Positions 25,070 to 61,737 are shown, counted from the stretch's first letter. The stretch: DNA of 64,000 bases from Candidatus Omnitrophota bacterium (GCA_029261055.1 JAJDCA010000026.1:5747-69746); one strand, 5' to 3'. Made by a program: numbers and translations. Notes: generated by a model from the sequence alone, not told the origin.

Positions 25070-25135
25070 TTAGGAATTTCTAGCTTTAAAGAAATTCCAA
25101 AAGGGTCTAATTCCCCGAGGCTTGCCCCGAGGAGT
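25067..25135. repeat. 69-bp dispersed repeat that begins with the stop codon TAA and contains a GGAATTTCT/AGAAATTCC hairpin; identical copy at 58753-58821
   Basis: Exact 69/69 match between the two loci. Confidence 0.8.
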
Positions 25136-25148
25136 TTCACTGTATTCT

Positions 25149-32895: not shown

Positions 32896-35316
32896 ATGTT
32901 CAATCGATTTACCGAGCGTGCCAGAAAAGTAATTGTTTATGCTAAAGAAGAGGCAAGAAGATTTAACCACGATTACATCGGCACAGAACATCTTCTTTTA
33001 GGTTTAGTGCGTGAGGGGGAGGGCGTTGCGGCAGCGGTTTTGCAAAAATTGGGTTTGGATTTAGAAACGATACGTATCGAGGTTGAAAAATTAGTCCAGC
33101 CGGGACCTCAGACACAGGTGCTTGGGGATATTCCCTTTACACCGCGGTCTAAAAAAGCGTTAGAACTTTCCGCCGAAGAAGCGAGAGCTCTTGGGCATAA
33201 TTATATTGGTACGGAACATTTGCTTTTGGGATTGGTCAAAGAAGGTGAAGGCATGGCCTACCGTGTTTTATTGAATTTAGGTTTGGATTTAGGGAAACTA
33301 CGTAATGAAGTTATGGAGTTGTTAGGCTCAGGGATCCCTGGATATGGCGGACAGGAGCAGGTTAGTAAATCGGATAAAACGCCTGCTATTGATGCGTATG
33401 GCCGTAATTTAAATAAATTAGCCAAAGACGGAAAGTTAGATCCGGTGATCGGGCGCGCAGAAGAAATTCAACGTATTCTTCAAATCTTAAGCCGTCGTAC
33501 AAAAAATAATCCGGTTTTATTGGGGGAAGCCGGTGTTGGAAAAACAGCCATCGTCGAAGGTTTGGCACAACTCATCGTTAATGGTGATGTTCCTGAGCTA
33601 TTACGTGATAAGAGTATTGTGATGCTTGATTTAGCATTAATGATTGCAGGGACAAAATATCGCGGTCAATTTGAAGAACGGATTAAAGCGATTATGGAAG
33701 AAATTAAACGTTCTGGAAAAATTATTTTATTTATTGATGAGCTGCATACGCTGGTTGGTGCTGGAGCTGCTGAAGGGGCCATTGATGCGGCTAATATTCT
33801 TAAGCCTGCTTTAGCTCGTGGAGAAATTCAGTGTGTTGGAGCCACTACACTTGATGAATATCGGAAGCATATCGAAAAAGATGCAGCTCTTGAAAGACGG
33901 TTTCAAACTATTACGGTGGAGTCACCCACTGTGGAAGAGGCCATTTTGATTCTTAAAGGGCTACGGGATAAATATGAAGCGCATCATCGTGTAAAGTTTT
34001 CTGATGAATCTTTAGATGCAGCCGTACGTCTTTCGGAGCGGTATATTTCCGGGCGTTCTTTACCTGACAAAGCCGTTGATATTCTAGATGAGGCTGGTGC
34101 TCAGGCGCGTCTTAAGGCAATGGTTGTGCCTTCCGGAGTCAAAGAATTAGAAGCAGAAATTGAAAAACTTCGAGAAGAAAAAGAGGACCATATCAAGAGT
34201 CAAGATTTTGAAAAAGCAGCACAAATGCGTGATTTGGAGCGTGAAAAACGCGAAAAATTAAAAGGTGTTAAGACGGAATGGTCTGAAGAGCGGGATAAAT
34301 CAACATTGACTTTGGGTTATGAAGAAATTGCTAAAATTGTTTCTCAATGGACAAAGATTCCTCTTGTTCGATTAGAAGAAAAAGAAACACAGAAGCTTTT
34401 GAAGATGGAAGATCAGATGAAGGGTGTTGTGATTGGCCAAGAAGAAGCCATTGGTGCCATAGCGCGTGCCGTAAGACGTTCCCGTGCGGGCATTAAAGAT
34501 CCTCGTCGACCCATAGGGTCTTTTGTTTTCTTAGGACCTACCGGTGTGGGGAAGACACTTTTGGCACAAGCATTAGCGGAATTTATGTTTGGCGGAAAAG
34601 ATGCTGTTATCCAGATTGATATGTCTGAGTATATGGATAAATTTAATGTTTCTCGCCTTATCGGTGCGCCACCGGGATATGTTGGATATGAAGAAGGTGG
34701 GCAGTTAACAGAGAAAGTAAGACGTAAACCTTATTCGGTTGTTCTTCTTGATGAAATTGAAAAGGCGCATCCGGATGTTTTTAATTTGTTATTACAGGTT
34801 TTTGAAGAGGGACGGTTAACCGATAGTTTGGGGAGGAAGGTTGATTTTCGTAATACGATTATCCTTATGACATCTAATGTTGGGGCGGATATGTTACGTA
34901 AGCAGGGGTCTTTAGGTTTTGTGGCCCCTAAAGAAGAGGTAACGCATGATGACATGAAAGGTCGATTGTTAGAAGAAGTCAAAAAAACATTTAAGCCCGA
35001 ATTTTTAAATCGTGTTGATGATATTATTGTTTTTAGATCATTGACGAAAGAAAATCTCTACGGCATTGTTGAATTAGAGATTAATGCTGTTCAAGATCGC
35101 CTGAAAGAAAAAGATATGAGCATTGAACTTTCCAAAGATGCTCTTGAACTCCTTATTGAAAAAGGTTTCGACCCGGTTTATGGTGCGCGGCCGCTTAAAC
35201 GGACAATTCAACGGCTTTTAGAAGACCCTCTTGCTGAAGATATGATTTCTGGTCGATTTAAAGACGGTGATAAAATAAAGGGTGCCCGCAAAGGCGATAA
35301 ATTGGAATTTAAGTAG
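32896..35316 (+). CDS. clpC: ATP-dependent Clp protease ATP-binding subunit ClpC
   Basis: Duplicated Clp-N repeats, two AAA+ modules ([17 protein letters not shown]) and a UVR linker motif. Confidence 0.9.
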
Positions 35317-35330
35317 GATGATTATTTTTT

Positions 35331-36392
35331 ATGCACATTTTAAAAGTTTTTGCATGCACATTTATTTTTATTATTTTTATCGCGAGGCTGTCTTTTTCAG
35401 AAACTATCCTATCCTTTGAAGGGCAGATGAATTTCAAGGAGGAGCGGCTTCAGGTTAAATTGAAGCCGCTTCATTTTTTGTCCGGTCCTTCGTCTTCTGT
35501 AGGTAGTGGCACAGTTCCGTCCTTAATTGAAGCTAATGATGATAAAAGTGCTGTTGTTCTTAAGGCTGAAAAGACATCAAAGAATGAATATCGTCTTTTA
35601 TTTAACATCGAGCATTTAAGGACGCCCTTGTTTGATATTTCTAGCCAAATTGAGAGCAGGCTTAGAATGTCCAGGTCTTCAGAGAATAAAAATATTTTTC
35701 TGGAGGGAGATGTTTCGAGCCAATATTCCCTCATCGATTTTGAACCTATCAACGAATTTAATGGAAGATTTGTCATAGCTGATAGCAATCAAGCGTATAA
35801 AAAGTTGATTGTTCCTAGGTTATCTTTTGGAAATGTTACTTGCCAAGGGGTGGTAGACCTTAAATATCCGTTTAAAATAGATCTTGTTGTAAATTTGAAC
35901 TCTGTTTTAATGAAAGATTTTCTTGGTTTTTGGGTTCGGAACAAAAAGCATGATTCCTCTGGAATTGTCTCTGGGAAAATTAAAGTTTTAGGTGATTTAA
36001 GCCGGGTAATTTTAAAGGGTGATTTAGAGAGTTATGATGGGCATATTAAAAAATTATCATTTAATAATATTCACTTAAATATTGGTGGGGTTTATCCTCA
36101 TATGAAGATTACAGATTCCACTCTTTCGAAAGCCGATGGATTGAGTGTTTCATTTGATGGGCCTTTTAATTTGGCAGATCGTAAAAATTTTAAGAAACAG
36201 CTCAAAGCTTTGACGCTTGCTCCATTGATTAAAGAAAGTGGGCTAGATTCAGAATGGACCATACGACGTTCAGAAAGAGATGATCAGGCTACGACAGAAC
36301 TTAAATACCTTTTGAGAAAAGAAAAAGGCTTTGGCGACACCGGGCCGGACAGTTTAGATGTATTAGGGATTGAAAGAACGATGGAGTTTTGA
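35331..36392 (+). CDS. Hypothetical secreted protein (353 aa)
   Basis: Hydrophobic N-terminus MHILKVFACTFIFIIFIARLSFS. I recognise no domain. The sequence is AT-rich. Confidence 0.5.
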   Translation: MHILKVFACTFIFIIFIARLSFSETILSFEGQMNFKEERLQVKLKPLHFLSGPSSSVGSGTVPSLIEANDDKSAVVLKAEKTSKNEYRLLFNIEHLRTPLFDISSQIESRLRMSRSSENKNIFLEGDVSSQYSLIDFEPINEFNGRFVIADSNQAYKKLIVPRLSFGNVTCQGVVDLKYPFKIDLVVNLNSVLMKDFLGFWVRNKKHDSSGIVSGKIKVLGDLSRVILKGDLESYDGHIKKLSFNNIHLNIGGVYPHMKITDSTLSKADGLSVSFDGPFNLADRKNFKKQLKALTLAPLIKESGLDSEWTIRRSERDDQATTELKYLLRKEKGFGDTGPDSLDVLGIERTMEF

Positions 36393-36396
36393 TTTT

Positions 36397-36490
36397 ATTT
36401 AGGAATTTTGATGCTTTAACGAAATTCCAAACGGGTTTAATACCCCGCAGCTCGCTGCAGCTGATAGGGTTCAGGGCTTGCCTTGGGGTT
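36397..36490. repeat. Divergent copy of the post-stop hairpin repeat family (GGAATTTT...GAAATTCC, GGGTTTAATACCC, GCAGC-TC-GCTGC)
   Basis: Same architecture as 25067-25135 and 58753-58821. Confidence 0.5.
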
Positions 36491-36648
36491 CATGCCTTTG
36501 ATTTTAAGAAATATACGTTTTAAGAAAGAATTGTATCATTATCTGATAAAACAAGTTACAAAATATTTAAATTTACCTGCCTGAAAATAATTTTATAACA
36601 TGATTTATTGTAATGAGTTATGAAATTCTTCATTAAATTCCCCTCCTC

Positions 36649-36676
36649 TTGACACTTGCCAGAAATATGTTATCTT
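36649..36676 (+). promoter_or_regulatory. Promoter TTGACA-N16-TGT-TATCTT (extended -10) of the giant gene
   Basis: Aligns with TTGCCG-N16-TGT-TATCCT at 61431-61458 upstream of the paralogue. Confidence 0.5.
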
Positions 36677-36682
36677 TTCAGT

Positions 36683-36765
36683 ATATTAGTAAGAAAACGC
36701 TTTTTTCCACAAAATTGTACCAATAGCTCTGTCTATCGACAGGTAGTCCTGCCACGGATTGGTTA
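36683..36765 (+). promoter_or_regulatory. Conserved structured 5' leader (GAAAA..TTTTC hairpin; ACCAAT ... ATTGGT closing stem around an internal CTGTC-TATC-GACAG hairpin; GCCACGGATTGGT)
   Basis: Duplicated at 61465-61546. The internal hairpin is replaced there by a different palindrome, CCTGCATGCAGG. Confidence 0.5.
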
Positions 36766-36847
36766 TGAGTTGTAAATAATCAGTACATATTTATTTACAA
36801 TCTCTTAAATTTTAAAAAAATAAATGTAGAGATGTACGTCTTTAATT

Positions 36848-36868
36848 AAACGTAGCAACGCTACGTTT
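36848..36868 (+). promoter_or_regulatory. Perfect 9-bp hairpin AAACGTAGC-AAC-GCTACGTTT 10 nt upstream of the RBS of the giant gene
   Basis: Direct reading. Confidence 0.5.
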
Positions 36869-36887
36869 CTACAACATAGGAGAAGAA

Positions 36888-39800
36888 ATGAATATTTACA
36901 TAAAAAAACAACGTTTTTGTAGTATTTACAGGATTTTATCCGCATTTATTGCCGTAGCATTCTTAACCACCACCATTGTGCCGCAAGGATATGCCAATAC
37001 AGTGATCAGTGCGCCATTGTCAGGGATCAATTTGCCTGTGCCAGGTACTATGCTGGGAATGACCGAAAGTTTTACGCCGGTTATGGTTAAGGGTGTGACC
37101 ATTCATCCGGACAATCCGCTGCGGTTTGATTTTATTGTGGATACGGGAAATACAGAATTAGGTCAGGGCGATGCTTTGCAGGAAGAAACCACCAAATTGG
37201 TCAAATATTTTTTGGCCGCGTTGACAGTGCCGGAAAAAGAGATGTGGGTCAACCTCAGTCCGTATGAAAAAGATCGTATTATTGCCGATGGTCTGGGGCA
37301 AACCGATATGGGCCGCGATATGTTGGCACAAGACTATCTACTGAAACAAGTTACAGCTTCACTCATGTATCCGGAAGAAGAGCTAGGCGAAAAGTTTTGG
37401 ACGCGTGTGTATGCGCGCGCACAAGAGGAATTTGGGACAACCGATATTCCGATGAACACGTTTAATAAAGTTTGGATAGTGCCGGAAAAGGCCGTTGTGT
37501 TCGAAGATGAAAAAACATCAAGCACGTATGTGTTGGAAAGCCATTTGAAGGTCATGTTGGAAGAAGATTACGAGGCAATGGAACATAATGTGGATCGTAG
37601 GGGTTTGATTCATCAAACCCAAGATAAGGGCATGATAAATCATGCCCCTACGGATATCATCCGCGAACTCCTCATTCCCGAAATCGAAAAAGAAGTCAAT
37701 CAAGGTAAAACCTTCGCCAATTTACGTCAAATCTACAACTCCATGATCTTAGCCGCATGGTACAAACAAAACCTCAAAGACAGCCTATTAGGCAAGATCT
37801 ACATGGATCAAAACAAGACCAAAGGCATCGACACCGAAGACAAACAAATTACCCAAAAAATTTACGATCAATACATATCCTCCTTCAAAAAAGGCGTGTA
37901 TGACTACATTAAGGAAGACTATGATTCAGCTACGCAGCAAGTTGTGCCAAGAAAATATTTCTCCGGAGGGCTGAAGATGGGGATTGATCTTTCAATGTTG
38001 GATACCAAAAAAGGACGTGGAAATATTACAAGACTTGATGCAGAAAATGTGGGAGAAATTTTAAAATTTGGATACGACATGGTTGATTTAGGCATGGGTT
38101 CCGCAAAGATTGTAAAAATCAAACAGGCGATTAATAATGCAACGTATGGGGATAACTCCATGGTAGCAAGTGAACAAGGGCTGAAAATATCTCAATATAT
38201 CCGGGAGGGGTTTGATAGTGACGTGGAAAGAGAAAAAAGAGCAGCAGTTATTGAAGCACTTTATGATCATGTGGATGTTTTACGAAAACAGTTTAAATCA
38301 GCTTCAGCTGTCGCTGATCTTCCTGTTTTTTTTCGGACAATTTCAGATTATTTGGAGAATGAAGCATTTTTAGAAATATTAAAAGAAAAGGTTTTGACTG
38401 AAGAAAAATACAACACAAGAATATCGACAGAAGATGATTTTTTAAAGGTTATTGCGGAATTTAAAGAGATCTTAGAGATAAAATCTAGCAGCACGATAGT
38501 TGAATCTGGTGTTTGGACAGCAGTGGAAAAAATAGCAGAGATATCATTTTATTTTAGTGGTTTACACGAAACAAAATGGTCTGCAACTTATCATAAAAGT
38601 AACATTGCTATGTTTTTGGCAGAAGGGATCATGGCAGAGTCAAAAGATGTAGAGAAAGAAAAGAAAATAAAAGAAAACGCTCTTAATCTTCTAGAGGGTA
38701 CAAAGAGTTTGTTTGATCGTATTCTTTTGAACGAAAAAAATGAAGAGTATACAGATGTATTCAAAAACCTTAATCAAAAGTTAGTCAACAATATAAAAAT
38801 TTTAGACTTAGAAAGTGAGGCGGCGAAGTTGCAATATTCTCTTGAGGAATACGAAGAAGACCTGGATGCATTTGAAAATAATTTGAATCAACATTTATTT
38901 GATGTTTTTCAAGAATTTATGGGGGATATTCCAAAAGTGGATGGTTTTATTAAGGAAGTAAGAAAAACACTTAATAATATTCAAAATAAAACAGGGAGTA
39001 GATTGAAACTCATCGCTGAAGAATTGAATAAAGCGATTGATGCTTTGGAGTTGGATGTCGCCATGAGTACAGAGGTGACGTCGCTTTCTGACGAAGGTGT
39101 TAAGCTTACTCAATGGGATGATATGGATGAATGGATCTTGGCGGGAGGGAGTGGATGGGGTAGTACATACAATAGAGATCAGGAGATACATGATGGAAAT
39201 TCTTATTTTACTGATACAGCAATAGAAGAAATTTATTATCGAGACAAAATTAATTCTTCTGGTAAGGTTATGGTTATAAAACTTAAATTAAAGGTTATAG
39301 AAACAATAGTTAAAGATAAAAAAATAGACATTAATGTTCCAGAGGTGATTATTGAAACAAATGAGAATAAAGAATTTGATATTGTTGTGAACGCTGATAA
39401 AAGAAAAATAAATTTTATGATTTGGAAGGCAAAATATAATATTACGATTGTTTTTAAGGATTCTAATAGTGAATTTCAAAAAATATTTTTAAATTTTGAT
39501 AAATATCAAAATATTATGAAAAATCCCGAGTCTTTTCGTAAAATTATACAGGATAAATTTATAGCAAGTGAGTATCTGGTGAAGTTAGTAGAAGAAAAAC
39601 TTGGGGAGATAGTGCAAGATGCTACAAATTCTCTTGATCCGATAGAGCTGAACAGTATTATGTCTGAAATTAATAATGTTAAAGAAATTTTGACCCAAGA
39701 AAAGGAAAATACAGAATTCTTAAATAAAATAAAACAAAAATTAAAAAATTTATTTTTAGCTATGGGGTCAGTTAATAGGCGGAAGAAGATAGAATTTATT

Positions 39801-42800
39801 GATGCTAGAAAGGCGCTTAACGAAATCCCGGAGATTCTTGGTTTAGGGAAGATTGATTTTCATTCTGAGGCGTATGATGATGCCATGCTGACGGATGAAG
39901 GAAAAAAGAAAATTAGAACGGAGCGGGTCATCAATGGGCTTTTAGATCTTGTGGTTCCGGAGAGTTTAAAAGAAAGCGGCTTGGAGGGGGTAAGGGGCGT
40001 TATTACGCAAGTAGTTAACATAATGGAAAAAGAATGGAGTGTAAAATATTTAGAGGATACGGCATCAAAACTTGAAAAACAATTTGATGATAAATTCGCA
40101 GAAACGGAAGAAATATCAGAGAGTTATGCGCATGTAATTAAGATGTTGGAAAAAGAACATGATACTCTTGATAACGATGGAAGAGCCGTTCAACATGATT
40201 TGATTCAAACACAATTTTCTGAACTGATTGAGTCCGCAATTAATGCGTATAATGATGTTGGCAAATCGTATGCGAGATCAAAAAATATTATTTTAATATT
40301 TAGAGACGAAATAAATAGAATCCAAGTAGAAAATGAAACGAAACAATTAAAAGAAAGTGATTTTAAGAAAATAATCCATAAGGCGTTGAAGGCTACTTTT
40401 CAAAATACGCTAACGGAGGTAAGTAAGGAAAATAAAGATGCATTTGTCATCTTAAATTTTAGAACTTTAATAGATGTCATTAAAAATAAAGTGGATTCTA
40501 TTATCGAAAATATTGATGGTGACGATGAAATAGGGGAAAAAATTTATGAAATATTCAAGAATCCTCCTATGTCGGAAGCGGAGAAGGATAAGGTAGTATT
40601 CGAAGTGATTTATCCTGGGATCTTTCAATTGACAGAATATAAATTAAGTCATTCAGGTTTTGAGAAATTTCCTCACTTAGGTTTTGAGAGTCAGCCCGAA
40701 GAACTCTTTGAGGCTCTTTTTAAAAAAGTTAATAAGTCCAATTATGTGACGATACCTGTAGGGAGGTTTAGTCCGGAAGGGGACATCATTCAAAATGCTA
40801 TGAAAAGTCTTGTCGAGACAGGACAAGCCATAATTGACGGTGACATAATTGGTTTGGATGAGCCGATAGAGACAGGGTTTAAGGCAAATGATAAAGATGA
40901 TTTAGAGGACATCAGGGGAATTATGCATAACATAAAGGTTAAATTTGATAATATTACGAAGAATTTTGAGGAAAGAATTCAAAAATCAAAAGGTTTTGGC
41001 GGTAATGATCAAATTCGAGATGATTTAAAGGAATTTATTTCTAAGAATGAAATGTCTCCTTATTTGATAAGATCGATTGCGAGTATATTTGACTACATAA
41101 TCAATCATTATCTCACTGTTGGTTCAGAGCTTGATAATTCTTTTTACGAATTAGCGCATGGTTTAAATATGAGGATTGTCGGTATTAAAAAAGATGGTCA
41201 TAAGATTTTTGTAGAAGCATGGGGTAAACACGGAGCCATTTATAAGTGGAGAGAATGGACAGATGACTTGGCGAAGGATATTGCTAAGGATACTATTGAA
41301 ATAATTCATCAGAGTAAGGACAGGTCTATGGCCACAGGAAAATTGGTTGCTTTTAAGGTGCAAAAAAAATATGGGGAAGGCAATTCTCTGAAAGTAGGAG
41401 AGGCTGTTATTGAAAAGTTAAGAGAGCAAGGCGTTACACTTTCTGATTTTAATGATTTTACGATTACTTTAAAGGGAAATCTGGGGGATGGGAAGAGTAG
41501 GGCGATTAGTATTAAATTTGCCGATGTTTCTTTTTCACAGGATGACGGCGCAGTTCATATTAAAAGTAGTGACCATTTTTTGGCATGGGAGCAAAGTTTA
41601 GATGACACTAGTGTGGAGTTTGAAGGACATTTAAAGGATGATAAAGATAATACGATAAAGAGTGAGGTCTCCGATAGTTCCATGATTGTGGAAGAGTGGA
41701 TTGGAAAGAAAATTGTTGGATGGGTTATGAATGAGAAGGCGGATCCAGAAGTTAACTTTATAAAGATGGATGCTTTATTGGAGTATCTTAAAGGGGAAGA
41801 TATTATTTCTTTTCCTGAAACTGAAGATTTGCGTGCATTTTTGTTAGAGTATGGTGCTGAAAGTACGGATGTTAAGGTCGAAGGGACCAATGAAATGTTT
41901 TATGTTTCTCAATTTAAAGGGCAGGAATTTTTAGCCTGGAATCAAAGTGTAAAACTTTACAAGTCGTTAATGGTTTTTACGCATATGGATGGTATTCCGC
42001 AAGAAGATTGGGGTAGCCCTGTTCAATTTTTATTTCATTATTTAAAGGTAAAAAAAGAAAAAAGGGACGGATTTGTTAGGAAAATTTTAGAAATAATTCT
42101 AAAAGAAAATGGTTTGTATCAGGAATCATTGAGCGATGTGCAAATTGTGGGTAAAGTAAGACCCATCCTTCAAAAAATTGAAAAAACTTTTGAGCCTAAT
42201 GAGACAGTTGTTAAGGGGGTGTTCTATACAGAATTAGTTCAGTTTTCAGAAGGTTTAAAAAAAGAAGAAAACGGAAATATTTATCCTGATGAGTTGATGA
42301 AACGGCATATTGACGCCGTTATTTCTCGCCTCATGGAAGGGCGCGTATTTGAGCGTATTTCTTTTTTATTAGATAAATACCGAATGAATAATACAAATTT
42401 AAAAGGTTTGAATACGATATTAAAGTGGGTGACCGAAAAACAAGAAGACAATGCCATGAGGTCTGAAGGGCGGGAAAAGATTGAGGCTATTGCGGATGAG
42501 GTGAAAAAACGGCTAAATTCTAAAGAATATGTGGATGTGTTACGGTTATTTAATAGATTTTTGAACGTACATCAGGAAATGAAAACAAAATGGGAAGAAG
42601 AGGTATTGCCTGAGGTGACTCTTGAAAATGAAAGAGATCTCTTAAGATGGAGTTTTAAAGATAATTTAGAAAAGATGTTAAATATTTTGGAAATCATGAG
42701 AGATAAAATTGTTTATAATAATGAGTATTATGCGTATGAATCTCAAGAAACCATAGGTGTGTTCGTCAATGAATGGGATGGGCAAGGTAAAATGTCGCTT

Positions 42801-44075
42801 TTTACGACAGGTGATATACTTCATGATATGGAGTTAGTCGTAAGAGACGTGGTGATTGGCGGTATGATTGAAAAAGTATTAAACGAAGAAAAAATTATCT
42901 TAGTGTCAGGAGATATGCCGATAAATAAAGTCGATATTCATGATATGGAATTGAAGGGTGAAGCTAGCTATGATGAAATACTAGAAAGATTAAATCATAA
43001 TCTTAACGCATTCAATAAAAGTAGGCCTATTAAAATAAATGGCTATTCTGTTTTTCATGTTGATGATGTGGCCAGAATTTTATTTTCTTTGAAAGGAAAG
43101 AGGAAAAAGGGTGAGAAAATTAATAGAAGAAAGAAGAAAATAAATATGCCTTTTTCACATAAAAAGTTGTCTAATTTTGTGTATGACGCGTATAAAACGA
43201 AATATGTAAAAAAATACACAAGAATAGAAAAAATGGAGTTGGGGTGGATACGAGAGAAATTAGAGAATTTTGAGCTGTTGGAAAAGAAAGATTTCGATGT
43301 AGTTCTTAATATTGAGAGACTCGATGGTGAGCTTAGAAGAAAGCTTAATGAAAAAATTAATGTTTTGTTTGGAAGTGAAATTAAGCTGGACAATAATCTT
43401 AAGAAAGATACTAAATTGGATATTATTAAGGCTATTCGATGGGATACATTCTTTAGCGTGGTTGATTCTATTGTTACGAGGAAGGATTCTCGAGTAGATG
43501 GTGGGACCATAGATATGGCGGTAGATATTTATCAAGAGTATGTTAAAAAAAGAGAGAGTATCTTTATTAATATTGAGGTAAAGGCTTTGTTGGCGGATGT
43601 GCCCATGCTTGACAAACAAGGCATTGAATATGCTTTGGACAATATTATTTTATTGGGGCAGCGGGGAAGAATAATTGTTCCGGGGTTGTATGGTGAACGT
43701 TTTTATGAGCTTTTAGAATCAGCCAGAGTTATTGGAGCAATCGACCGTGCAATGTTCGAGATGACAGGTGAGGTCGAAAAACAAGTTAATAAAATTAAGA
43801 AGGTCGGTGGTATTAACCTTGATGCGGCGATGTTGGATTTGCAGATTAGGCGGGACGGGAATGGGGTGCCGTTGCCGGTTGCGGAGCAGGATTTCTCAAC
43901 GATACATATTGAAGGAGTTTTTCCGGTTTTTATTAATGCGACGCCAGTGAGTATTCCTCTCCTGTTGGGTTTTGCGGATGAAGCCGTTCCTGTCGGGTGT
44001 CCGTCTGATGAAGAAAGTCTCCATTGTGACCAAGCTTTGATTTTCAGTAAGCCGGAAGAAGAGATTGTTTTGTAG
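36888..44075 (+). CDS. Giant 2395-aa protein. A signal peptide/anchor and a conserved roughly 360-aa N-terminal module precede an AT-rich Lys/Glu/Asn/Ile-rich region of about 2000 aa of unknown function
   Basis: One continuous ORF with RBS AGGAG. The N-terminal module is roughly 75-90% identical to the N-terminus of the ORF starting at 61738. Confidence 0.8.
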   Translation: MNIYIKKQRFCSIYRILSAFIAVAFLTTTIVPQGYANTVISAPLSGINLPVPGTMLGMTESFTPVMVKGVTIHPDNPLRFDFIVDTGNTELGQGDALQEETTKLVKYFLAALTVPEKEMWVNLSPYEKDRIIADGLGQTDMGRDMLAQDYLLKQVTASLMYPEEELGEKFWTRVYARAQEEFGTTDIPMNTFNKVWIVPEKAVVFEDEKTSSTYVLESHLKVMLEEDYEAMEHNVDRRGLIHQTQDKGMINHAPTDIIRELLIPEIEKEVNQGKTFANLRQIYNSMILAAWYKQNLKDSLLGKIYMDQNKTKGIDTEDKQITQKIYDQYISSFKKGVYDYIKEDYDSATQQVVPRKYFSGGLKMGIDLSMLDTKKGRGNITRLDAENVGEILKFGYDMVDLGMGSAKIVKIKQAINNATYGDNSMVASEQGLKISQYIREGFDSDVEREKRAAVIEALYDHVDVLRKQFKSASAVADLPVFFRTISDYLENEAFLEILKEKVLTEEKYNTRISTEDDFLKVIAEFKEILEIKSSSTIVESGVWTAVEKIAEISFYFSGLHETKWSATYHKSNIAMFLAEGIMAESKDVEKEKKIKENALNLLEGTKSLFDRILLNEKNEEYTDVFKNLNQKLVNNIKILDLESEAAKLQYSLEEYEEDLDAFENNLNQHLFDVFQEFMGDIPKVDGFIKEVRKTLNNIQNKTGSRLKLIAEELNKAIDALELDVAMSTEVTSLSDEGVKLTQWDDMDEWILAGGSGWGSTYNRDQEIHDGNSYFTDTAIEEIYYRDKINSSGKVMVIKLKLKVIETIVKDKKIDINVPEVIIETNENKEFDIVVNADKRKINFMIWKAKYNITIVFKDSNSEFQKIFLNFDKYQNIMKNPESFRKIIQDKFIASEYLVKLVEEKLGEIVQDATNSLDPIELNSIMSEINNVKEILTQEKENTEFLNKIKQKLKNLFLAMGSVNRRKKIEFIDARKALNEIPEILGLGKIDFHSEAYDDAMLTDEGKKKIRTERVINGLLDLVVPESLKESGLEGVRGVITQVVNIMEKEWSVKYLEDTASKLEKQFDDKFAETEEISESYAHVIKMLEKEHDTLDNDGRAVQHDLIQTQFSELIESAINAYNDVGKSYARSKNIILIFRDEINRIQVENETKQLKESDFKKIIHKALKATFQNTLTEVSKENKDAFVILNFRTLIDVIKNKVDSIIENIDGDDEIGEKIYEIFKNPPMSEAEKDKVVFEVIYPGIFQLTEYKLSHSGFEKFPHLGFESQPEELFEALFKKVNKSNYVTIPVGRFSPEGDIIQNAMKSLVETGQAIIDGDIIGLDEPIETGFKANDKDDLEDIRGIMHNIKVKFDNITKNFEERIQKSKGFGGNDQIRDDLKEFISKNEMSPYLIRSIASIFDYIINHYLTVGSELDNSFYELAHGLNMRIVGIKKDGHKIFVEAWGKHGAIYKWREWTDDLAKDIAKDTIEIIHQSKDRSMATGKLVAFKVQKKYGEGNSLKVGEAVIEKLREQGVTLSDFNDFTITLKGNLGDGKSRAISIKFADVSFSQDDGAVHIKSSDHFLAWEQSLDDTSVEFEGHLKDDKDNTIKSEVSDSSMIVEEWIGKKIVGWVMNEKADPEVNFIKMDALLEYLKGEDIISFPETEDLRAFLLEYGAESTDVKVEGTNEMFYVSQFKGQEFLAWNQSVKLYKSLMVFTHMDGIPQEDWGSPVQFLFHYLKVKKEKRDGFVRKILEIILKENGLYQESLSDVQIVGKVRPILQKIEKTFEPNETVVKGVFYTELVQFSEGLKKEENGNIYPDELMKRHIDAVISRLMEGRVFERISFLLDKYRMNNTNLKGLNTILKWVTEKQEDNAMRSEGREKIEAIADEVKKRLNSKEYVDVLRLFNRFLNVHQEMKTKWEEEVLPEVTLENERDLLRWSFKDNLEKMLNILEIMRDKIVYNNEYYAYESQETIGVFVNEWDGQGKMSLFTTGDILHDMELVVRDVVIGGMIEKVLNEEKIILVSGDMPINKVDIHDMELKGEASYDEILERLNHNLNAFNKSRPIKINGYSVFHVDDVARILFSLKGKRKKGEKINRRKKKINMPFSHKKLSNFVYDAYKTKYVKKYTRIEKMELGWIREKLENFELLEKKDFDVVLNIERLDGELRRKLNEKINVLFGSEIKLDNNLKKDTKLDIIKAIRWDTFFSVVDSIVTRKDSRVDGGTIDMAVDIYQEYVKKRESIFINIEVKALLADVPMLDKQGIEYALDNIILLGQRGRIIVPGLYGERFYELLESARVIGAIDRAMFEMTGEVEKQVNKIKKVGGINLDAAMLDLQIRRDGNGVPLPVAEQDFSTIHIEGVFPVFINATPVSIPLLLGFADEAVPVGCPSDEESLHCDQALIFSKPEEEIVL

Positions 44076-44140
44076 GTGGATTTGGTGGATATTTTCTTTA
44101 TGACGATTTTGACCAAAGTAGAAAAATCTTGCGTTATTTT

Positions 44141-44156
44141 TTGACTTTGGTATAAT
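44141..44156 (+). promoter_or_regulatory. Extended -10 promoter TGGTATAAT, 6 nt before ATG 44163 (likely a leaderless transcript)
   Basis: TGGTATAAT at 44148-44156 with no RBS; the start codon sits at the expected transcription start site. Confidence 0.4.
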
Positions 44157-44162
44157 TTCTTC

Positions 44163-45344
44163 ATGTTGCGTGATCGTTATTTACATCAGCCGATTTTGTC
44201 AGATCTAAAAACCCACATGGTTTTTATGGGAGGTCCCCGCCAGGTAGGAAAGACCACGTTAGCAAAATATATTGGAAAACAGCATTTTCCACACACCTAT
44301 TTAAACTGGGATAGTCGGGAGGATAAAAAAACAATCCTTGCACGGACATTTCCCGGTCCATCCAAGCTTATCATTTTTGATGAAATCCATAAATATCGTC
44401 CCTGGAAAAATTATCTAAAGGGGGAGTTTGATAAATATAAAGACAGGTTTTCCATTATGGTTACCGGAAGCGCCCGTTTGGACCTTTATCGAAAGGGGGG
44501 AGACTCTCTTATGGGGCGATATCATTATTACCGTCTTCATCCTTTTTCTGTTGCCGAAGTTTTTACACCACAGGGGCTGTCTGTGGAAGCCGGAAAAGAG
44601 TTAGTTTTTTCTAATTCTTTAGATAAAAAACGGCAAAAGATTTTTAAAGATCTTTTTAAGTTTGGCGGGTTCCCCGAACCTTTTTTGAGTAAAGATGCTA
44701 AAACACTGCGGCGTTTTCATAATGAACGATTGGACCGACTTGTTAAGGAAGATATTCGTGATGTTGAAACACTGAGAGATCTTTCCGCCATTCAGATTCT
44801 TGTGGAAATGCTTCCTGAAAAAGTGGGATCGCTTTTGTCCATTAATTCGTTAAGAGAAGATCTTCAGGTGACGCATAAAACAATTTCGCTGTGGATGGAT
44901 ATTTTAGAGCGGTTTTATTATCATTTTCGGATACGTCCTTTTTCAGCCAGACGTATCCAGTCGTTGAGGAAAGAACCTAAGATGTACCTTTGGGATTGGT
45001 CTCAGTTAGAGGATGAAGGGGCTAAGTTTGAGAATATCATTGCTTCACATCTTTTAAAATTTGTGCATTTTCTGTACGATACCGAAGGGTATAAAGCAGA
45101 ACTTTATTTTTTACGTGACACAGCCGGCCGTGAGGTTGATTTTCTTGTGACGATTAATAAAAAACCATGGTTTGCTGTGGAAGCTAAACTATCTTCTTCA
45201 AAAATATCCCCGCATTTAAAATATTTTCATGAACGCCTTACTATTCCGTATGTTTACCAGGTTGTCAAAGCGCCTGATATTGATTTTTTTAAAGATAGTT
45301 TCCGTGTCATCAGTGCAGATAAATTCTTAAGTGCATTGGTCTGA
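44163..45344 (+). CDS. AAA+ family ATPase with a C-terminal DUF4143 domain (COG1373-like)
   Basis: Walker A GGPRQVGKTT; Walker B LIIFDEIH; characteristic C-terminal DUF4143-like region. Confidence 0.7.
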   Translation: MLRDRYLHQPILSDLKTHMVFMGGPRQVGKTTLAKYIGKQHFPHTYLNWDSREDKKTILARTFPGPSKLIIFDEIHKYRPWKNYLKGEFDKYKDRFSIMVTGSARLDLYRKGGDSLMGRYHYYRLHPFSVAEVFTPQGLSVEAGKELVFSNSLDKKRQKIFKDLFKFGGFPEPFLSKDAKTLRRFHNERLDRLVKEDIRDVETLRDLSAIQILVEMLPEKVGSLLSINSLREDLQVTHKTISLWMDILERFYYHFRIRPFSARRIQSLRKEPKMYLWDWSQLEDEGAKFENIIASHLLKFVHFLYDTEGYKAELYFLRDTAGREVDFLVTINKKPWFAVEAKLSSSKISPHLKYFHERLTIPYVYQVVKAPDIDFFKDSFRVISADKFLSALV

Positions 45345-45424
45345 TCTCCACGACATTTCCGTTGTTTATTTATCGATATTTGGTAGAATGGCACGCGTAC
45401 TAAATTTAATTTTGAAGTAACCAT

Positions 45425-45482
45425 AAACAGACCTCGAGGGATTGCCTGGGTTATTCGATAACAACCCCCCGAGGACTGTTTA
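45425..45482. repeat. Imperfect inverted repeat AAACAGACCTCGAGGG ... CCCCCCGAGGACTGTTT (about 14/16-bp stem)
   Basis: Related to the 27-bp-arm hairpin at 57552-57619. Confidence 0.5.
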
Positions 45483-45507
45483 TTTATTTTGAAGAACTTG
45501 GATACTT

Positions 45508-46887
45508 ATGAAAACTAAGACCTTATTTGTTTGTCAAGAATGTGGGACGCAATCGCCGCGATGGGTGGGGAAGTGTTCGGGCTGTAATAGCTGGAATTCT
45601 TTTGTAGAGGAAAGTGTTGTGTCAAGTCGTCCTGGAAAAGGGGCGGGATTTTTAAAGGACGAGCCTGTTTTATTGACGGATGTTGTGATTGATCACGAAA
45701 AACGGTTGATGACGGGCATAGGGGAATTTGATACGGTTTTAGGGGGTGGTGTTGTACCGGGATCGGTAACGCTTATTGGCGGTGATCCAGGTATTGGAAA
45801 ATCGACTTTGTCGCTTCAAGCGGCATGTGCTTTAAGTCAAAAAAAACACAAGGTTCTTTACATCAGCGGGGAGGAATCTGTCAAACAGTCGCGCATGCGA
45901 GCCCAGCGTTTAATGGGGGCTATGGATGGGGCTGCTGAAGAAGCGATGAGTTCGCTGTACATTGTTAATCAGGTGGACTTAGATATTATTTTAGAATACA
46001 TAAAAAAAATGAAGCCGGCGGTTGTGGTGATTGATTCTATTCAGGTGATGGGCTGTTCATCTGTAGCTTCTTCTCCGGGGAGTGTTAGCCAGGTGAGAGA
46101 ATGTTCGGCGATGTTAACGCAGTCGGCTAAGTCTTTGGGCATATCATTATTTATTATTGGTCATGTCACTAAGGAAGGTATGTTGGCTGGTCCACGCGTG
46201 TTAGAACATATTGTGGATACGGTATTGTATTTTGAAGGGGAACGTTATTCTACGTATCGGGTTTTGCGGGCCACTAAAAATCGTTTTGGATCGACGAATG
46301 AAATCGGTGTGTTTGAAATGGTGTCTACGGGGTTAGCCGAAGTGCCTAATCCATCGGAAATATTTTTATCTGAGCGTCCTCATGATGCGAGTGGTTCTGT
46401 GGTGGTTCCAATTATGGAAGGAACACGGCCTTTGCTTATTGAGGTGCAAGGATTGGTCAGTCGTGCCAGTTATGGAATCGCCCGCCAGAAGAGCCAGGGC
46501 TTTGATAGCAATCGTTTAGCTTTGCTTGTTGCTGTTTTGGAAAAAAGGATCGGTTTGAATTTGCAAGATCAAGATGTTTTTCTCAATATGGTCGGTGGTG
46601 TTAAAGTGGTGGACCCGGCCGCTGATCTAGCGGTTACAGTGGCTATTGCTTCTGCTTTTTTAGATAAGCCAGTTCCTTTTGATACGGCCGTTTTGGGGGA
46701 AGTGGGTTTATCATCGGAAGTACGCAGTGTTAGTCAGATACTGTCGCGCATTAATGAGGCTGCCAAATTAGGTTTTAAGAGATGCATCCTTCCTAAAAAT
46801 AATTTGAAAGCAGGGATTGATTTAAAAAAACAAAACTTAGAAATTGTCGCTGTAGAAAGTGTCCGGGAAGCACTGGATAAGTTGTGA
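45508..46887 (+). CDS. radA: DNA repair protein RadA
   Basis: N-terminal C4 zinc finger CQECGTQSPRWVGKCSGCNSWNS; Walker A GDPGIGKST; KNRFG motif; C-terminal Lon-like domain. Confidence 0.9.
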   Translation: MKTKTLFVCQECGTQSPRWVGKCSGCNSWNSFVEESVVSSRPGKGAGFLKDEPVLLTDVVIDHEKRLMTGIGEFDTVLGGGVVPGSVTLIGGDPGIGKSTLSLQAACALSQKKHKVLYISGEESVKQSRMRAQRLMGAMDGAAEEAMSSLYIVNQVDLDIILEYIKKMKPAVVVIDSIQVMGCSSVASSPGSVSQVRECSAMLTQSAKSLGISLFIIGHVTKEGMLAGPRVLEHIVDTVLYFEGERYSTYRVLRATKNRFGSTNEIGVFEMVSTGLAEVPNPSEIFLSERPHDASGSVVVPIMEGTRPLLIEVQGLVSRASYGIARQKSQGFDSNRLALLVAVLEKRIGLNLQDQDVFLNMVGGVKVVDPAADLAVTVAIASAFLDKPVPFDTAVLGEVGLSSEVRSVSQILSRINEAAKLGFKRCILPKNNLKAGIDLKKQNLEIVAVESVREALDKL

Positions 46888-57554: not shown

Positions 57555-57619
57555 ACACACCTCGGGAGTCTGTTTGGGGTACACAACGCCATCCCAAACA
57601 GACCCCCGAGGTGTGTTTA
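57552..57619. repeat. Long hairpin with 27-bp arms (TAAACACACCTCGGGAGTCTGTTTGGG / CCCAAACAGACCCCCGAGGTGTGTTTA) and a 13-nt loop, beginning at the thiL stop codon
   Basis: 26/27 complementary; no U-tract follows. Confidence 0.7.
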
Positions 57620-58755: not shown

Positions 58756-58821
58756 TTAGGAATTTCTAGCTTTAAAGAAATTCCAAAAGGGTCTAATTCC
58801 CCGAGGCTTGCCCCGAGGAGT
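58753..58821. repeat. Second identical copy of the 69-bp post-stop hairpin repeat; it supplies the tsaB stop codon
   Basis: 69/69 identical to 25067-25135. Confidence 0.8.
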
Positions 58822-58827
58822 GTCATT

Positions 58828-61464: not shown

Positions 61465-61546
61465 GTACAACGTAAGAAATCGGTTTCTTAACAATATCCT
61501 ACCAATAAAGGCCTGCATGCAGGTTTTAACCTCGCCACGGATTGGT
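61465..61546 (+). promoter_or_regulatory. Second copy of the conserved structured leader (hairpin GAAA-TCGG-TTTC; ACCAAT ... CCTGCATGCAGG ... GCCACGGATTGGT)
   Basis: Aligned with 36683-36765; covarying internal hairpin. Confidence 0.5.
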
Positions 61547-61555
61547 AATTCTTGA

Positions 61556-61720: not shown

Positions 61721-61737
61721 CCCAAGGAGAAAATCCA

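What the first reader, a model, noticed from the sequence alone, without database searches (positions are those of the whole stretch)
35331..45507. 10-kb insertion splitting the conserved clpC-radA pair: secreted hypothetical, 2395-aa AT-rich giant protein and DUF4143 AAA+ ATPase
In Firmicutes-type genomes clpC is followed directly by radA, then disA/yacL-ispD-ispF. Here clpC ends at 35316 and radA starts at 45508. Between them are three genes with no housekeeping counterpart, along with dispersed repeats (36397-36490, 45425-45482) and a 495-bp non-coding stretch (36393-36887). The giant protein's distal 2000 aa are extremely Lys/Glu/Asn/Ile-rich and noticeably more AT-rich than the flanks. 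The DUF4143 ATPase appears to be transcribed from a leaderless extended -10 promoter. Together this looks like an acquired accessory island. A giant protein plus a stand-alone AAA+ ATPase would be a plausible transport, defence-like or surface-structure module.
Basis: partly seen in the sequence, partly recalled or inferred. Interest (0 to 1): 0.55.

Follow-up and report, generated by a model that had tools for sequence, protein, structure and literature searches.

The report
Variable gene slot with capped giant protein
The stretch between clpC and radA is not one acquired three-gene island: it holds a core gene, then a variable slot where this Omnitrophota genome carries a member of a huge, uncharacterised family of exported modular giant proteins and, separately, a candidate anti-phage ATPase-nuclease.

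Summary
The genome is Omnitrophota. In 16 related loci the order is mcsB-clpC-(ORF1)-mlaE-mlaF-mlaD-radA, so clpC and radA are not adjacent in this phylum.

ORF1 (35331-36392) is a core, syntenic, Omnitrophota-only envelope gene and is not part of an insertion. Here mlaEFD is missing. In its place are about 9.1 kb (36393-45507) holding two independent genes with host-like codon usage.

1. The 2395-aa protein belongs to a family of at least 8,320 sequence clusters. Members share a signal peptide plus a conserved 360-aa N-terminal "cap", a variable payload cut into modules by D-x-[AS]-M junction motifs, and a conserved C-terminal cap. This member's 1,864-aa payload has no homologue. A second family member starts at 61737.

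2. The DUF4143 ATPase matches PADLOC candidate defence gene PDC-S01. It sits next to family genes in only 2 of 62 loci.

The low GC of the giant gene comes from amino-acid composition (GC2 0.26, GC3 host-like). The closest relative has a different capped giant, a toxin-antitoxin pair, an SNF2 helicase and a PKS in the same slot. The interval is a variable hotspot, not a functional module. The giant-protein family is the interesting part.

The parts
32896..35316 (+). clpC (context; left anchor of the conserved block mcsA-mcsB-clpC)
   Evidence: Pfam Clp_N, AAA_2, ClpB_D2-small. It is 71-86% identical to the clpC of related Omnitrophota loci.
35331..36392 (+). ORF1: core Omnitrophota-specific secreted or envelope protein, possibly TamB/AsmA-like. 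Not part of the insertion.
   Evidence: 45 full-length homologues, all Omnitrophota. It lies directly after clpC and before mlaE in L002, L124/L144 and L146-L149. Weak TamB PF04357 hits in 6 of 39 homologues, best E 0.0015. Host-like GC3 0.32.
36402..36447 (+). Copy of a dispersed intergenic hairpin repeat (GGAATTT..AAATTCC + AAACGGGT..), probably the ORF1 terminator or a REP-like element
   Evidence: Further copies at 25073 and 58759. Absent from relatives' loci. A Logan contig breaks inside it at 36439.
36649..36676 (+). Sigma-70-type promoter-like site of the giant gene (TTGACA-16-TATCTT with upstream TG)
   Evidence: Best + strand match in the region, 10 of 12. A homologous promoter and leader lie upstream of the second family gene at 61737.
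36719..36763 (+). Conserved 5' leader element: stem ACCAAU/AUUGGU enclosing a hairpin and the invariant CCUGCCACGG (36748-36757)
   Evidence: In all Omnitrophota-derived sequence held, the exact 10-mer occurs only 100-255 nt upstream of family genes, in sense orientation: 8 loci, two of them (L088 and L124) near-identical there. The enclosing stems covary. No Rfam match.
36888..37970 (+). Giant gene, constant N-terminal part: signal-peptide-like segment (aa 1-36, ..PQGYA|N) plus N-cap ending VPRKYFSGG (aa 354-361)
   Evidence: The profile of the N-cap hits 8,320 50%-identity clusters, always at the N-terminus. It is 45-73% identical to 120 listed homologues. GC3 0.48 against 0.30 in the middle. 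No Pfam, NCBIfam, PDB or fold match.
37971..43805 (+). Giant gene, variable payload: orphan modules delimited by D-x-[AS]-M junction motifs (D at aa 367, 422, 723, 997, 1478, 1596, 1854, 2286)
   Evidence: Aa 422-2285 have no homologue in 5.8 billion proteins and no Pfam hit per module. No internal repeats. The whole protein has 9 motifs against 0.3 expected; the ninth, at aa 2312, lies in the C-cap. Host codon usage, KL 0.044.
43806..44075 (+). Giant gene, constant C-terminal part (C-cap): GGINLDAAMLDLQIRRDGNGVPLP..IEGVFPVFINATPVSIPLLLGF, including a Pro-rich hydrophobic segment (aa 2344-2362), plus an acidic tail
   Evidence: A GGI[ND][LF][DN] motif occurs 63-134 aa from the C-terminus in about 113 of 120 family proteins. 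GC3 0.48-0.62. The AF2 model is mostly coil, pTM 0.31. No Pfam, NCBIfam or PDB match.
44148..44156 (+). Extended -10 (TGgTATAAT) 6 nt upstream of the DUF4143 ATG; implies a leaderless mRNA
   Evidence: Direct reading. No Shine-Dalgarno sequence between it and the ATG.
44163..45344 (+). AAA_14 ATPase + DUF4143 (PD-(D/E)xK) gene = PADLOC candidate single-gene defence system PDC-S01
   Evidence: Pfam. PADLOC PDC-S01, E 1.6e-47. D..EAK motif in ..REVDFLV..AVEAKLS. Literature: PMC12988326 and PMC3424549. Host-like codon usage.
45425..45481 (+). Terminator-like hairpin (AAACAGACCTCGAGGG...CCCCCGAGGACTGTTT + T-run) after the DUF4143 gene
   Evidence: A related hairpin lies at 57547-57600.
45508..46887 (+). 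radA (context; right anchor; then yacL-like, ispD, ispF, cysS, tmk, holB as in relatives)
   Evidence: Pfam. Synteny.

Best explanation
The interval is a conserved block followed by a variable slot, not one island.

Shown:
- In Omnitrophota the ancestral order is mcsA-mcsB-clpC-(ORF1)-mlaE-mlaF-mlaD-radA-yacL-ispD-ispF.
- ORF1 is a core envelope gene.
- In this genome the mlaEFD lipid-transport operon is missing from the slot.
- Two unrelated accessory genes with host-like codon usage occupy the slot.

Gene 1 is a capped modular giant protein.
- A sigma-70-type promoter (36649-36676) appears to drive a leader of about 210 nt. The leader carries a family-specific CCUGCCACGG element.
- The 2395-aa product has a signal-peptide-like N-terminus and a conserved N-cap (to aa 361).
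- Its payload consists of orphan modules separated by D-x-[AS]-M junction motifs.
- It ends with a conserved C-cap that contains a proline-rich hydrophobic segment.
- Inferred mechanism: the protein is exported by Sec. The two caps are the constant export, anchoring or processing handles shared by thousands of paralogues. The payload is displayed on, or released from, the envelope for host or prey interaction, and the junction motifs are linker or proteolytic processing sites.
- Inferred origin of diversity: recombination between the conserved caps replaces whole payloads. Caps are 69% identical between the two copies in this window, while the payloads share nothing.

Gene 2 is a leaderless, stand-alone PDC-S01-type AAA+ ATPase fused to a PD-(D/E)xK nuclease.
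- Inferred function: a nucleic-acid-targeting defence or conflict gene that acts independently of the giant protein.

The slot between ORF1/mlaD and radA is a recurrent landing site for such cargo in this lineage.
For: Synteny:
- 11 GTDB Omnitrophota loci have mlaE, mlaF and mlaD (Pfam-confirmed) and nothing else between clpC and radA. L002 adds ORF1, and L014 adds a 604-aa ORF1 relative.
- Four ORF1-bearing contigs are colinear with the window from lpxA to PSP1 except for mlaEFD.
- The closest relative (clpC 86% identical) has clpC-ORF1-mlaEFD-PIN/RHH-capped giant P0106-SNF2 helicase-PKS.
- No mla genes or remnants were found in the window.

Composition:
- GC3 and synonymous usage of ORF1, the payload and DUF4143 lie within the housekeeping range.

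Family:
- More than 2,719 homologues match only the N-cap, and the N-cap profile hits 8,320 clusters.
- The cap architecture is present in about 113 of 120 proteins.
- Tandem arrays are common, and a second copy starts at 61737.
- Junction motifs are enriched: 315 observed against 53 expected, and 141 against 5.
- The motifs flank full-length PGI and PGK domains and were never found inside the enzyme domains of the five members checked.
- The payload has no homologue.
- Caps have GC3 about 0.10 above the payload in 43 of 46 genes, p = 1e-12.
- The two N-caps in the window share codons more often than expected, 57% against 43%.

Leader element. Promoter.

ATPase:
- PADLOC PDC-S01, E 1.6e-47.
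- PMC12988326 describes PDC-S01 as an ATPase fused to PD-(D/E)xK and as the fourth most common candidate defence gene, not yet validated.
- A DUF4143 gene lies next to family genes in only 2 of 62 loci, and no recurrent partner gene exists.
Against: - The function of the caps, export, anchoring and cleavage are all inferred. The AF2 models of the N-cap (pLDDT 57) and C-cap (pTM 0.31) are poor and gave no fold match.
- Family payloads elsewhere include cytoplasm-type enzymes such as PGI, PGK and acyl-CoA dehydrogenase, and receiver domains. These fit badly with an extracytoplasmic location.
- The ORF1|giant junction is supported only by the MAG assembly. Short-read Logan contigs break at 36439 and 43865, inside repeated elements. 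The loss of mlaEFD is therefore not independently confirmed.
- mlaEFD may exist elsewhere in the genome; only 64 kb were available.
- Elevated GC3 in the caps could reflect causes other than recombination.
- PDC-S01 has no experimental validation.
Confidence: 0.68

Rival explanations
1. One reading: a horizontally acquired three-gene accessory island in which the secreted protein, the giant protein and the AAA+ ATPase work together as a transport, defence or surface-structure module.
For: The giant gene and DUF4143 are absent from this position in 15 of 16 relatives. All three genes lie on the same strand. No terminator was predicted between the giant gene and DUF4143.
Against: ORF1 is core and syntenic. 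Codon usage is host-like. No integrase, tRNA or att-like repeats were found. DUF4143 lies next to capped genes in only 2 of 62 loci and there is no recurrent partner gene. DUF4143 has its own leaderless promoter-like site. PDC-S01 is described as a single-gene system.
Confidence: 0.08
2. The giant protein and its family are not exported. They are tethered to the cytoplasmic face of the membrane by the N-terminal and C-cap hydrophobic segments and act as enzyme or scaffold strings (metabolon-like). The N-terminal segment is then an anchor rather than a cleaved signal peptide.
For: Family payloads are complete cytoplasmic-type enzymes and receiver domains that need ATP, NAD, FAD or phosphotransfer. 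Both ends carry one hydrophobic segment, and 85 of 108 members have none in between. West-Roberts et al. raise the possibility of wrong localisation.
Against: The N-terminus has the classic n-h-c layout: a K/R-rich start, a hydrophobic core, then ..GYA|Q/N. This predicts N-in/C-out. The DeepTMHMM analysis of larger Omnitrophota giants places such content outside the cytoplasm (bioRxiv 10.64898/2026.06.07.730766). This member has no recognisable enzyme at all.
Confidence: 0.15
3. Assembly artefact at the left junction: the MAG assembler joined ORF1 to the giant gene's leader across a dispersed repeat. In the real genome mlaEFD, and perhaps more, lies between them, as in relative L124.
For: Logan contigs from SRR15505515 end exactly inside the dispersed repeat (36439) and inside the C-cap (43865). 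L124 has ORF1-mlaEFD-TA-capped giant.
Against: The repeat copy at 36402-36447 is only 88% identical to the other two copies in the window. That is too divergent to confuse assemblers using long k-mers or read pairs. The right junction, C-cap-DUF4143-radA, is independently confirmed at 100% identity. A capped gene plus DUF4143 therefore does sit upstream of radA, and mlaD is not adjacent to radA.
Confidence: 0.08
4. The 7.2-kb ORF is a decaying or non-functional relic whose orphan middle does not encode a working protein.
For: The middle has no homologue and no domain. Its composition is biased.
Against: An open frame of 1,864 codons in DNA of about 34% GC is vanishingly unlikely without selection; by my estimate from base composition, P is about 1e-70. 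Other-frame ORFs in the region are at most 153 aa. Codon usage is host-like. The caps, promoter and conserved leader are intact. Hydrophobic content of 0.30-0.36 is typical of folded protein.
Confidence: 0.03

Closest known systems
Omnitrophota giant proteins: 'Archaeovorins' and 'multi-enzyme metabolic' giants (West-Roberts et al. 2023, bioRxiv 10.1101/2023.11.21.568195; Nielsen & Lui 2026, bioRxiv 10.64898/2026.06.07.730766)
   Same: Same phylum. Very long ORFs with a signal peptide and/or TM anchor. Payloads in the family include sugar-metabolism enzymes (PGM, PGI, starch synthase), receiver domains and HEAT repeats. Sequences are mostly orphan, and post-translational cleavage has been suspected.
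   Different: Those papers treat proteins of 10,000 aa or more (up to 147,155 aa) with many TM helices and C39/S8 peptidase or SecA-like domains. This protein is 2,395 aa with one hydrophobic segment at each end and none of those domains. Term searches of the two papers for 'N-terminal', 'C-terminal' and 'cleav' returned no mention of conserved terminal caps or junction motifs.
Polymorphic toxin / Rhs / CDI-type cassette systems
   Same: Constant trafficking part plus hypervariable payload. Many paralogues and tandem arrays. Mosaic evolution suggests cassette replacement.
   Different: Here both ends are constant and the middle varies. No toxin or immunity domains are recognisable, and no orphan-cassette or immunity genes lie downstream. 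Payloads elsewhere are housekeeping-type enzymes.
Secretion cargo with a Sec signal plus a C-terminal sorting domain (T9SS CTD; exosortase, rhombosortase or sortase signals)
   Same: N-terminal signal peptide and a conserved C-terminal element of about 60-70 aa containing a hydrophobic stretch, near the C-terminus.
   Different: No match to any NCBIfam or Pfam sorting-signal model. The tail after the hydrophobic segment is acidic rather than basic. The element is followed by 20-70 variable residues. An additional 330-aa N-cap has no counterpart in those systems.
PDC-S01 (PADLOC candidate single-gene defence; COG1373, AAA_14 + DUF4143)
   Same: Full-length HMM match with E 1.6e-47. AAA_14 P-loop (GGPRQVGKT) and a C-terminal PD-(D/E)xK-type D..EAK motif.
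   Different: Nothing distinctive apart from the apparent leaderless start. Defence activity is unproven for the whole family (PMC12988326).
Firmicutes ctsR-mcsA-mcsB-clpC-radA-disA/yacL-ispD-ispF cluster
   Same: The same gene order on both sides of the interval.
   Different: In Omnitrophota, mlaEFD (with or without ORF1) is normally intercalated between clpC and radA. In this genome mlaEFD is replaced.

Membership tests
Omnitrophota capped modular protein family (defined here by N-cap profile A2) | N-cap homology at the extreme N-terminus | tested here: met
   P0001 (the window protein) scores E 2.9e-186 over profile positions 1-361. It is 45-73% identical to 120 homologues.
Omnitrophota capped modular protein family (defined here by N-cap profile A2) | N-cap ends with [PKR][RK][KRQ]YFSGG at about aa 340-370 | tested here: met
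   PRKYFSGG at aa 354-361.
Omnitrophota capped modular protein family (defined here by N-cap profile A2) | Single C-cap (GGI[ND][LF][DN]..LQIKRDG..PLP..Q..GF.PVI..) 63-134 aa from the C-terminus | tested here: met
   GGINLD at aa 2307, 88 aa from the end. Aligned with 39 others in A4.
Omnitrophota capped modular protein family (defined here by N-cap profile A2) | Payload divided by enriched junction motifs (D-x-[AS]-M or [AS]SSP) | tested here: met
   9 D.[AS]M motifs against 0.3 expected.
Omnitrophota capped modular protein family (defined here by N-cap profile A2) | Export and proteolytic processing at the junctions | not testable with these tools
   Only the signal-peptide-like sequence can be read. 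Internal translation starts were excluded: an SD-like sequence precedes 10% of motif ATGs against 7% of other ATGs.
PDC-S01 candidate defence gene | Match to the PADLOC PDC-S01 HMMs | tested here: met
   PDLC04790, E 1.6e-47, residues 16-350.
PDC-S01 candidate defence gene | AAA_14 ATPase fused to a DUF4143 / PD-(D/E)xK domain | tested here: met
   Pfam PF13173 E 1.3e-24 and PF13635 E 1.7e-25. D..EAK motif read. DUF4143 is listed in the PD-(D/E)xK superfamily (PMC3424549).
PDC-S01 candidate defence gene | Protects against phage | not testable with these tools
   Validation is pending for most PDC candidates (PMC12988326).
Horizontally acquired genomic island | Atypical composition or codon usage | tested here: not met
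   GC3 0.30-0.34 and synonymous KL 0.04-0.06, as in housekeeping genes. Only the family's caps deviate, and they do so in all genomes.
Horizontally acquired genomic island | Mobility hallmarks (integrase or transposase, tRNA target, flanking direct repeats) | tested here: not met
   No such ORFs. The only tRNA is at 13048. Only weak AT-rich chance-level repeats were found.
Horizontally acquired genomic island | Absent from the same site in relatives | tested here: met
   True for the giant gene and DUF4143 in 15 of 16 loci. False for ORF1.
Archaeovorin / 10-kaa-plus Omnitrophota giants | Length of 10,000 aa or more, many TM helices, C39/S8 peptidase or SecA-like domains | tested here: not met
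   2,395 aa, two hydrophobic segments and no Pfam domain.
Known C-terminal sorting signals (T9SS CTD, PEP-CTERM, LPXTG and others) | Match to the curated models | tested here: not met
   No NCBIfam or Pfam hit for the protein or for 40 C-caps.
Coiled-coil or repeat surface fibre | Internal sequence repeats or long heptad-regular segments | tested here: not met
   Self-BLAST found none. TRF found none. A crude home-made heptad score found none; this last test is weak.
TamB/AsmA-like envelope lipid-transport proteins (for ORF1) | Homology to the TamB C-terminal domain | tested here: inconclusive
   PF04357 is hit weakly by 6 of 39 ORF1 homologues, best E 0.0015, and not by the window protein itself. 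The gene always lies next to mlaEFD.

The most novel reading that the evidence does not exclude
The giant gene is one copy of an undescribed Omnitrophota-wide 'capped polyprotein' system with more than 8,000 sequence clusters. In this reading, a Sec signal plus N-cap and a C-cap bracket strings of complete enzymes or orphan modules. The lineage-specific junction motifs (D-x-A-M or A-S-S-P) are proteolytic processing sites. The caps serve both as export or anchoring handles and as recombination handles for wholesale payload exchange. A dedicated CCUGCCACGG leader RNA regulates a subset of the genes. If so, this would supply the missing cleavage points for the phylum's giant proteins. It would also explain how cytoplasm-type enzymes are delivered outside the cell, or into hosts.
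Probability: 0.3. Interest if true: 0.75.

Novelty: new variant of a known kind. Interest (0 to 1): 0.5.

Why it matters
As a genomic island the finding is ordinary: a variable slot holding a very common candidate defence gene.

The giant gene matters more. It exposes a very large protein family (at least 8,320 clusters at 50% identity) that has no Pfam or NCBIfam model. The family has a simple, testable grammar: signal peptide plus N-cap, modules separated by short junction motifs, then a C-cap.

Two recent studies of Omnitrophota giant proteins left two questions open. One is whether such proteins are cleaved, and where. The other is why glycolytic-type enzymes appear to be exported. The junction motifs give concrete candidate cleavage sites that could be checked in existing proteomes of Velamenicoccus-type enrichments. 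The caps give handles for finding the export or processing machinery.

The result also corrects database annotations that name such proteins after a single embedded enzyme, for example 'phosphoglycerate kinase'.

Tried and rejected
- Relation between the two giant ORFs (231-7388 and 36888-44075): unrelated.
- Remnants of mlaE, mlaF or mlaD in the three intergenic regions, or elsewhere in the window: only noise.
- Flanking repeats or inverted repeats as insertion scars: only weak AT-rich matches at chance level, for example 36555-36575 with 45401-45421 at 76%.
- Junction-motif methionines as internal translation starts: an SD-like sequence lies upstream in 10% of motif ATGs against 7% of other ATGs. 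Rejected.
- A conserved partner gene (protease or transporter) next to family genes: none recurs. The top non-family cluster occurs in 6 of 45 loci.
- Fold of the C-cap: the model is mostly coil and uninformative.
- Profile searches of both caps and of ORF1 against PDB and Pfam: nothing significant except weak TamB hits for ORF1.
- Rfam on the leader regions: only chance-level hits.
- Sigma-54 reading of CCTGCCACGG: it matches only in the antisense direction. Rejected by inspection.
- Look-ups of P0001 and P0002 contigs: not indexed.
- Recent gene conversion between the two N-caps in the window: 75% nucleotide identity and a longest identical run of 33 nt. Exchange is not recent, though codon sharing exceeds expectation.

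Full report
**Observation.**
- clpC is 32896-35316, ORF1 is 35331-36392, and a 495-bp gap follows.
- The 2395-aa ORF is 36888-44075, the AAA_14+DUF4143 gene is 44163-45344, and radA is 45508-46887.
- Downstream come a PIN/TRAM yacL-like gene, ispD, ispF, a hexapeptide transferase, cysS, tmk and holB.
- ORF1 and the giant ORF have no Pfam or NCBIfam hit.
- The payload is K/E/N/I-rich and has GC 0.33-0.36.
- TGgTATAAT ends 6 nt before the DUF4143 ATG with no Shine-Dalgarno sequence, so a leaderless transcript is plausible.
- The "dispersed repeats" are short intergenic hairpin elements that recur elsewhere in the window (25073, 58759, 57547) and are not specific to this interval.

**Organism and synteny.** Every named homologue of the giant protein and of ORF1 is from Omnitrophota.
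- I fetched radA loci from GTDB species genomes. The 13 best are Omnitrophota or mislabelled relatives.
- In the 12 of these whose contig reaches clpC, mcsB-clpC lies 2.2-4.1 kb upstream of radA.
- The gap always holds mlaE, mlaF and mlaD.
- L002 also carries an ORF1 homologue, and L014 carries a 604-aa relative of ORF1.
- Four contigs carrying ORF1 homologues are colinear with the window over about 20 kb, from lpxA-lpxI-aspS-lolE-lolD-ilvE-mcsA-mcsB-clpC-ORF1 to radA-yacL-ispD-ispF-hexapep-cysS-tmk-holB-PSP1. The only difference is that they have mlaEFD where the window has the gap, the giant gene and DUF4143.
- Adjacency of clpC and radA is a Firmicutes trait (30 loci), not the ancestral state here.
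- ORF1 therefore belongs to the conserved block. The novel segment is 36393-45507 (about 9.1 kb), and the event is a replacement of mlaEFD.
- No mla gene or remnant is detectable in the window.

**The slot is a hotspot.** The closest relative available (clpC 86% identical) has this order: clpC-ORF1-mlaEFD, then a PIN/RHH toxin-antitoxin pair, a different 3589-aa member of the same giant family (P0106), an SNF2 helicase and a 3369-aa PKS. Two lineages thus carry different accessory cargo, including a capped giant gene, at the same place upstream of radA.

**Composition.** ORF1, the giant's payload and DUF4143 have GC3 of 0.32, 0.30 and 0.34. Their synonymous-codon divergence from the window's housekeeping genes is 0.053, 0.044 and 0.060, inside the housekeeping range of 0.025-0.10.
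- The low GC of the payload comes from GC2 of 0.26, that is, its amino-acid content.
- There is no integrase, tRNA or convincing flanking repeat.
- None of this indicates recent foreign acquisition.

**The giant protein belongs to a huge family.** More than 2,719 proteins match it, but only over the first 15-22% of its length.
- A profile of that N-terminal region hits 8,320 clusters at 50% identity, 6,627 of them at E <= 1e-30, and always at the N-terminus.
- In about 113 of the 120 best hits the N-cap ends with ..PRKYFSGG at aa 340-370. A single GGI[ND][LF][DN]..LQIKRDGNGVPLP..Q..GF.PVIINITPV..LLLGL element lies 63-134 aa from the C-terminus.
- The window protein has both elements (aa 354-361 and aa 2307 onward).
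- Between the caps the sequences are unrelated. In other members the payload includes complete enzymes, receiver domains and HEAT repeats:
  - PGI at 648 bits, covering profile positions 1-467 of 486;
  - PGK covering positions 3-379 of 379;
  - acyl-CoA dehydrogenase, UGPase and PGM.
- Family genes often lie in tandem arrays.
- A second member starts at 61737 in this window. Its N-cap is 69% identical in amino acids and 75% in nucleotides to the first, its payload is unrelated, and it begins with a receiver domain.
- The window protein's payload (aa 422-2285) has no homologue among 5.8 billion proteins and no Pfam hit per module. It has no internal repeats.
- An open frame of that length in AT-rich DNA with host codon usage argues that it is a real coding sequence.

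**Module grammar.** The motif D-x-[AS]-M occurs 9 times in the window protein against 0.3 expected.
- Across 120 family proteins it occurs 315 times against 53 expected. In other lineages [AS]SSP occurs 141 times against 5 expected.
- The motifs sit just after the N-cap and about 10 residues before the C-cap.
- They flank full-length PGI and PGK domains and fell inside no enzyme domain in the five members checked.
- They are not internal translation starts.
- I read them as inter-module linkers or processing sites. This is an inference.

**Topology.** 94 of 108 members have a signal-peptide-like N-terminus and 85 of 108 have no strongly hydrophobic segment between the caps.
- The payload should therefore lie on the same side of the membrane as the N-cap, nominally outside the cytoplasm.
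- That conflicts with the cytoplasm-type enzymes. Both preprints on larger Omnitrophota giants note the same paradox.
- The cap structures could not be resolved: N-cap pLDDT 57, C-cap pTM 0.31, and no fold or profile match.

**Signs of cassette evolution.** Caps have GC3 about 0.10 above their payloads in 43 of 46 genes from many genomes (p = 1e-12). The same holds for 22 of 27 C-caps.
- The two N-caps in the window share codons at 57% of identical residues against 43% expected.
- Conserved caps combined with unrelated payloads fit payload replacement by recombination in the caps. This is an inference.

**The 495-bp gap is a regulatory region.** It contains three elements:
- a copy of the dispersed hairpin repeat after ORF1;
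- the best + strand promoter match, TTGACA-16-TATCTT with upstream TG, at 36649-36676;
- a leader in which a stem (ACCAAU/AUUGGU) encloses a hairpin and the 10-mer CCUGCCACGG (36748-36757).

The second family gene has a homologous promoter and leader. In all Omnitrophota-derived sequence held, the exact 10-mer occurs only 100-255 nt upstream of family genes, in sense orientation, in 8 loci (two of them near-identical sequences). The enclosing stems differ in sequence but remain complementary. Rfam has no match. The evidence for a structured RNA is suggestive only; fold z-scores range from -0.5 to -2.1.

**The ATPase.** It matches PADLOC PDC-S01 (E 1.6e-47).
- It has a P-loop and a D..EAK nuclease-type motif.
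- DUF4143 is classified in the PD-(D/E)xK superfamily (PMC3424549).
- PMC12988326 describes PDC-S01 as an ATPase-nuclease fusion and the fourth most common candidate defence gene, still unvalidated.
- DUF4143 genes lie next to capped genes in only 2 of 62 loci, and no other partner gene recurs.
- It is best read as an independent occupant of the slot.

**Caveat.** Short-read Logan contigs from SRR15505515 match the window at 100% identity. They end at 36439, inside the dispersed repeat, and start at 43865, inside the C-cap.
- The junction C-cap-DUF4143-radA is therefore independently confirmed.
- The junction ORF1|giant rests on the MAG assembly alone.

**Verdict.** The interval holds a core gene plus a variable slot with two unrelated accessory genes. 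The notable item is the capped modular giant-protein family. It is a variant of the known Omnitrophota giant-protein phenomenon. Its caps, junction motifs and leader element are not mentioned in the two preprints I searched by term.

Noticed in passing
window 61737-64000 (+), runs off the window end: A second member of the capped family. Its N-cap is 69% identical in amino acids and 75% in nucleotides to the first. A DASM junction follows, then a Response_reg receiver domain. It has a homologous promoter and a CCTCGCCACGG leader upstream (61472-61585).
   Followed up: yes
window 231-7388 (+), probably starts before the window: A third giant ORF (at least 2385 aa, GC about 0.50 against 0.39 for the genome). 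It has five Laminin_G_3 domains, repeat units of about 1000 aa and a C-terminal TM segment. It is unrelated to the capped family. Seymour et al. (PMC10066038) describe laminin_G_3-bearing giant ORFs in Omnitrophota.
   Followed up: partly
window 36719-36763 and 61497-61545; L124 8664-8745; L090 9628-9700; L092 38-112; L086, L094, L100: A conserved CCUGCCACGG element in the 5' leaders of a subset (about 9-11 of 72) of capped-family genes. It is enclosed by a covarying stem and has no Rfam match. It is a candidate new cis-regulatory RNA or protein-binding site.
   Followed up: partly
window 25073-25140, 36402-36447, 58759-58826: A dispersed intergenic repeat of about 70 nt (hairpin GGAATTT..AAATTCC followed by GGGTCTAATTCCCCGAGGCTTGCCCCGAGG) placed just after stop codons. 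The copies at 25073 and 58759 are nearly identical. It was not found in relatives' loci. It may be REP/MITE-like or a terminator family.
   Followed up: partly
Family-wide (L082-L143; window): N-caps and C-caps have third-position GC about 0.10 higher than the payloads of the same genes, in genomes of very different GC content. This may reflect biased gene conversion among paralogues or a nucleotide-level constraint.
   Followed up: partly
L124/L144 7794-8404 (-) and 19706-29637 (+): In the closest relative the same slot holds a PIN_3/RHH toxin-antitoxin pair, an SNF2-family helicase and a 3369-aa hybrid PKS/NRPS-type gene downstream of its capped giant gene.
   Followed up: partly
One search hit list (e.g. 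P0010, P0025, P0049, P0100, P0103, P0111): Public annotations name capped-family proteins of 1.7-2.8 kaa after one embedded enzyme ('phosphoglycerate kinase', 'glucose-6-phosphate isomerase', 'triose-phosphate isomerase', 'acyl-CoA dehydrogenase'). This could distort metabolic reconstructions of Omnitrophota MAGs.
   Followed up: no
window 35331-36392 and homologues (A5): The ORF1 family is Omnitrophota-only, single-copy and always lies between clpC and mlaE. It has weak TamB-domain similarity and a 604-aa long form in L014. It may be an unrecognised component linked to the Mla lipid-transport system.
   Followed up: partly
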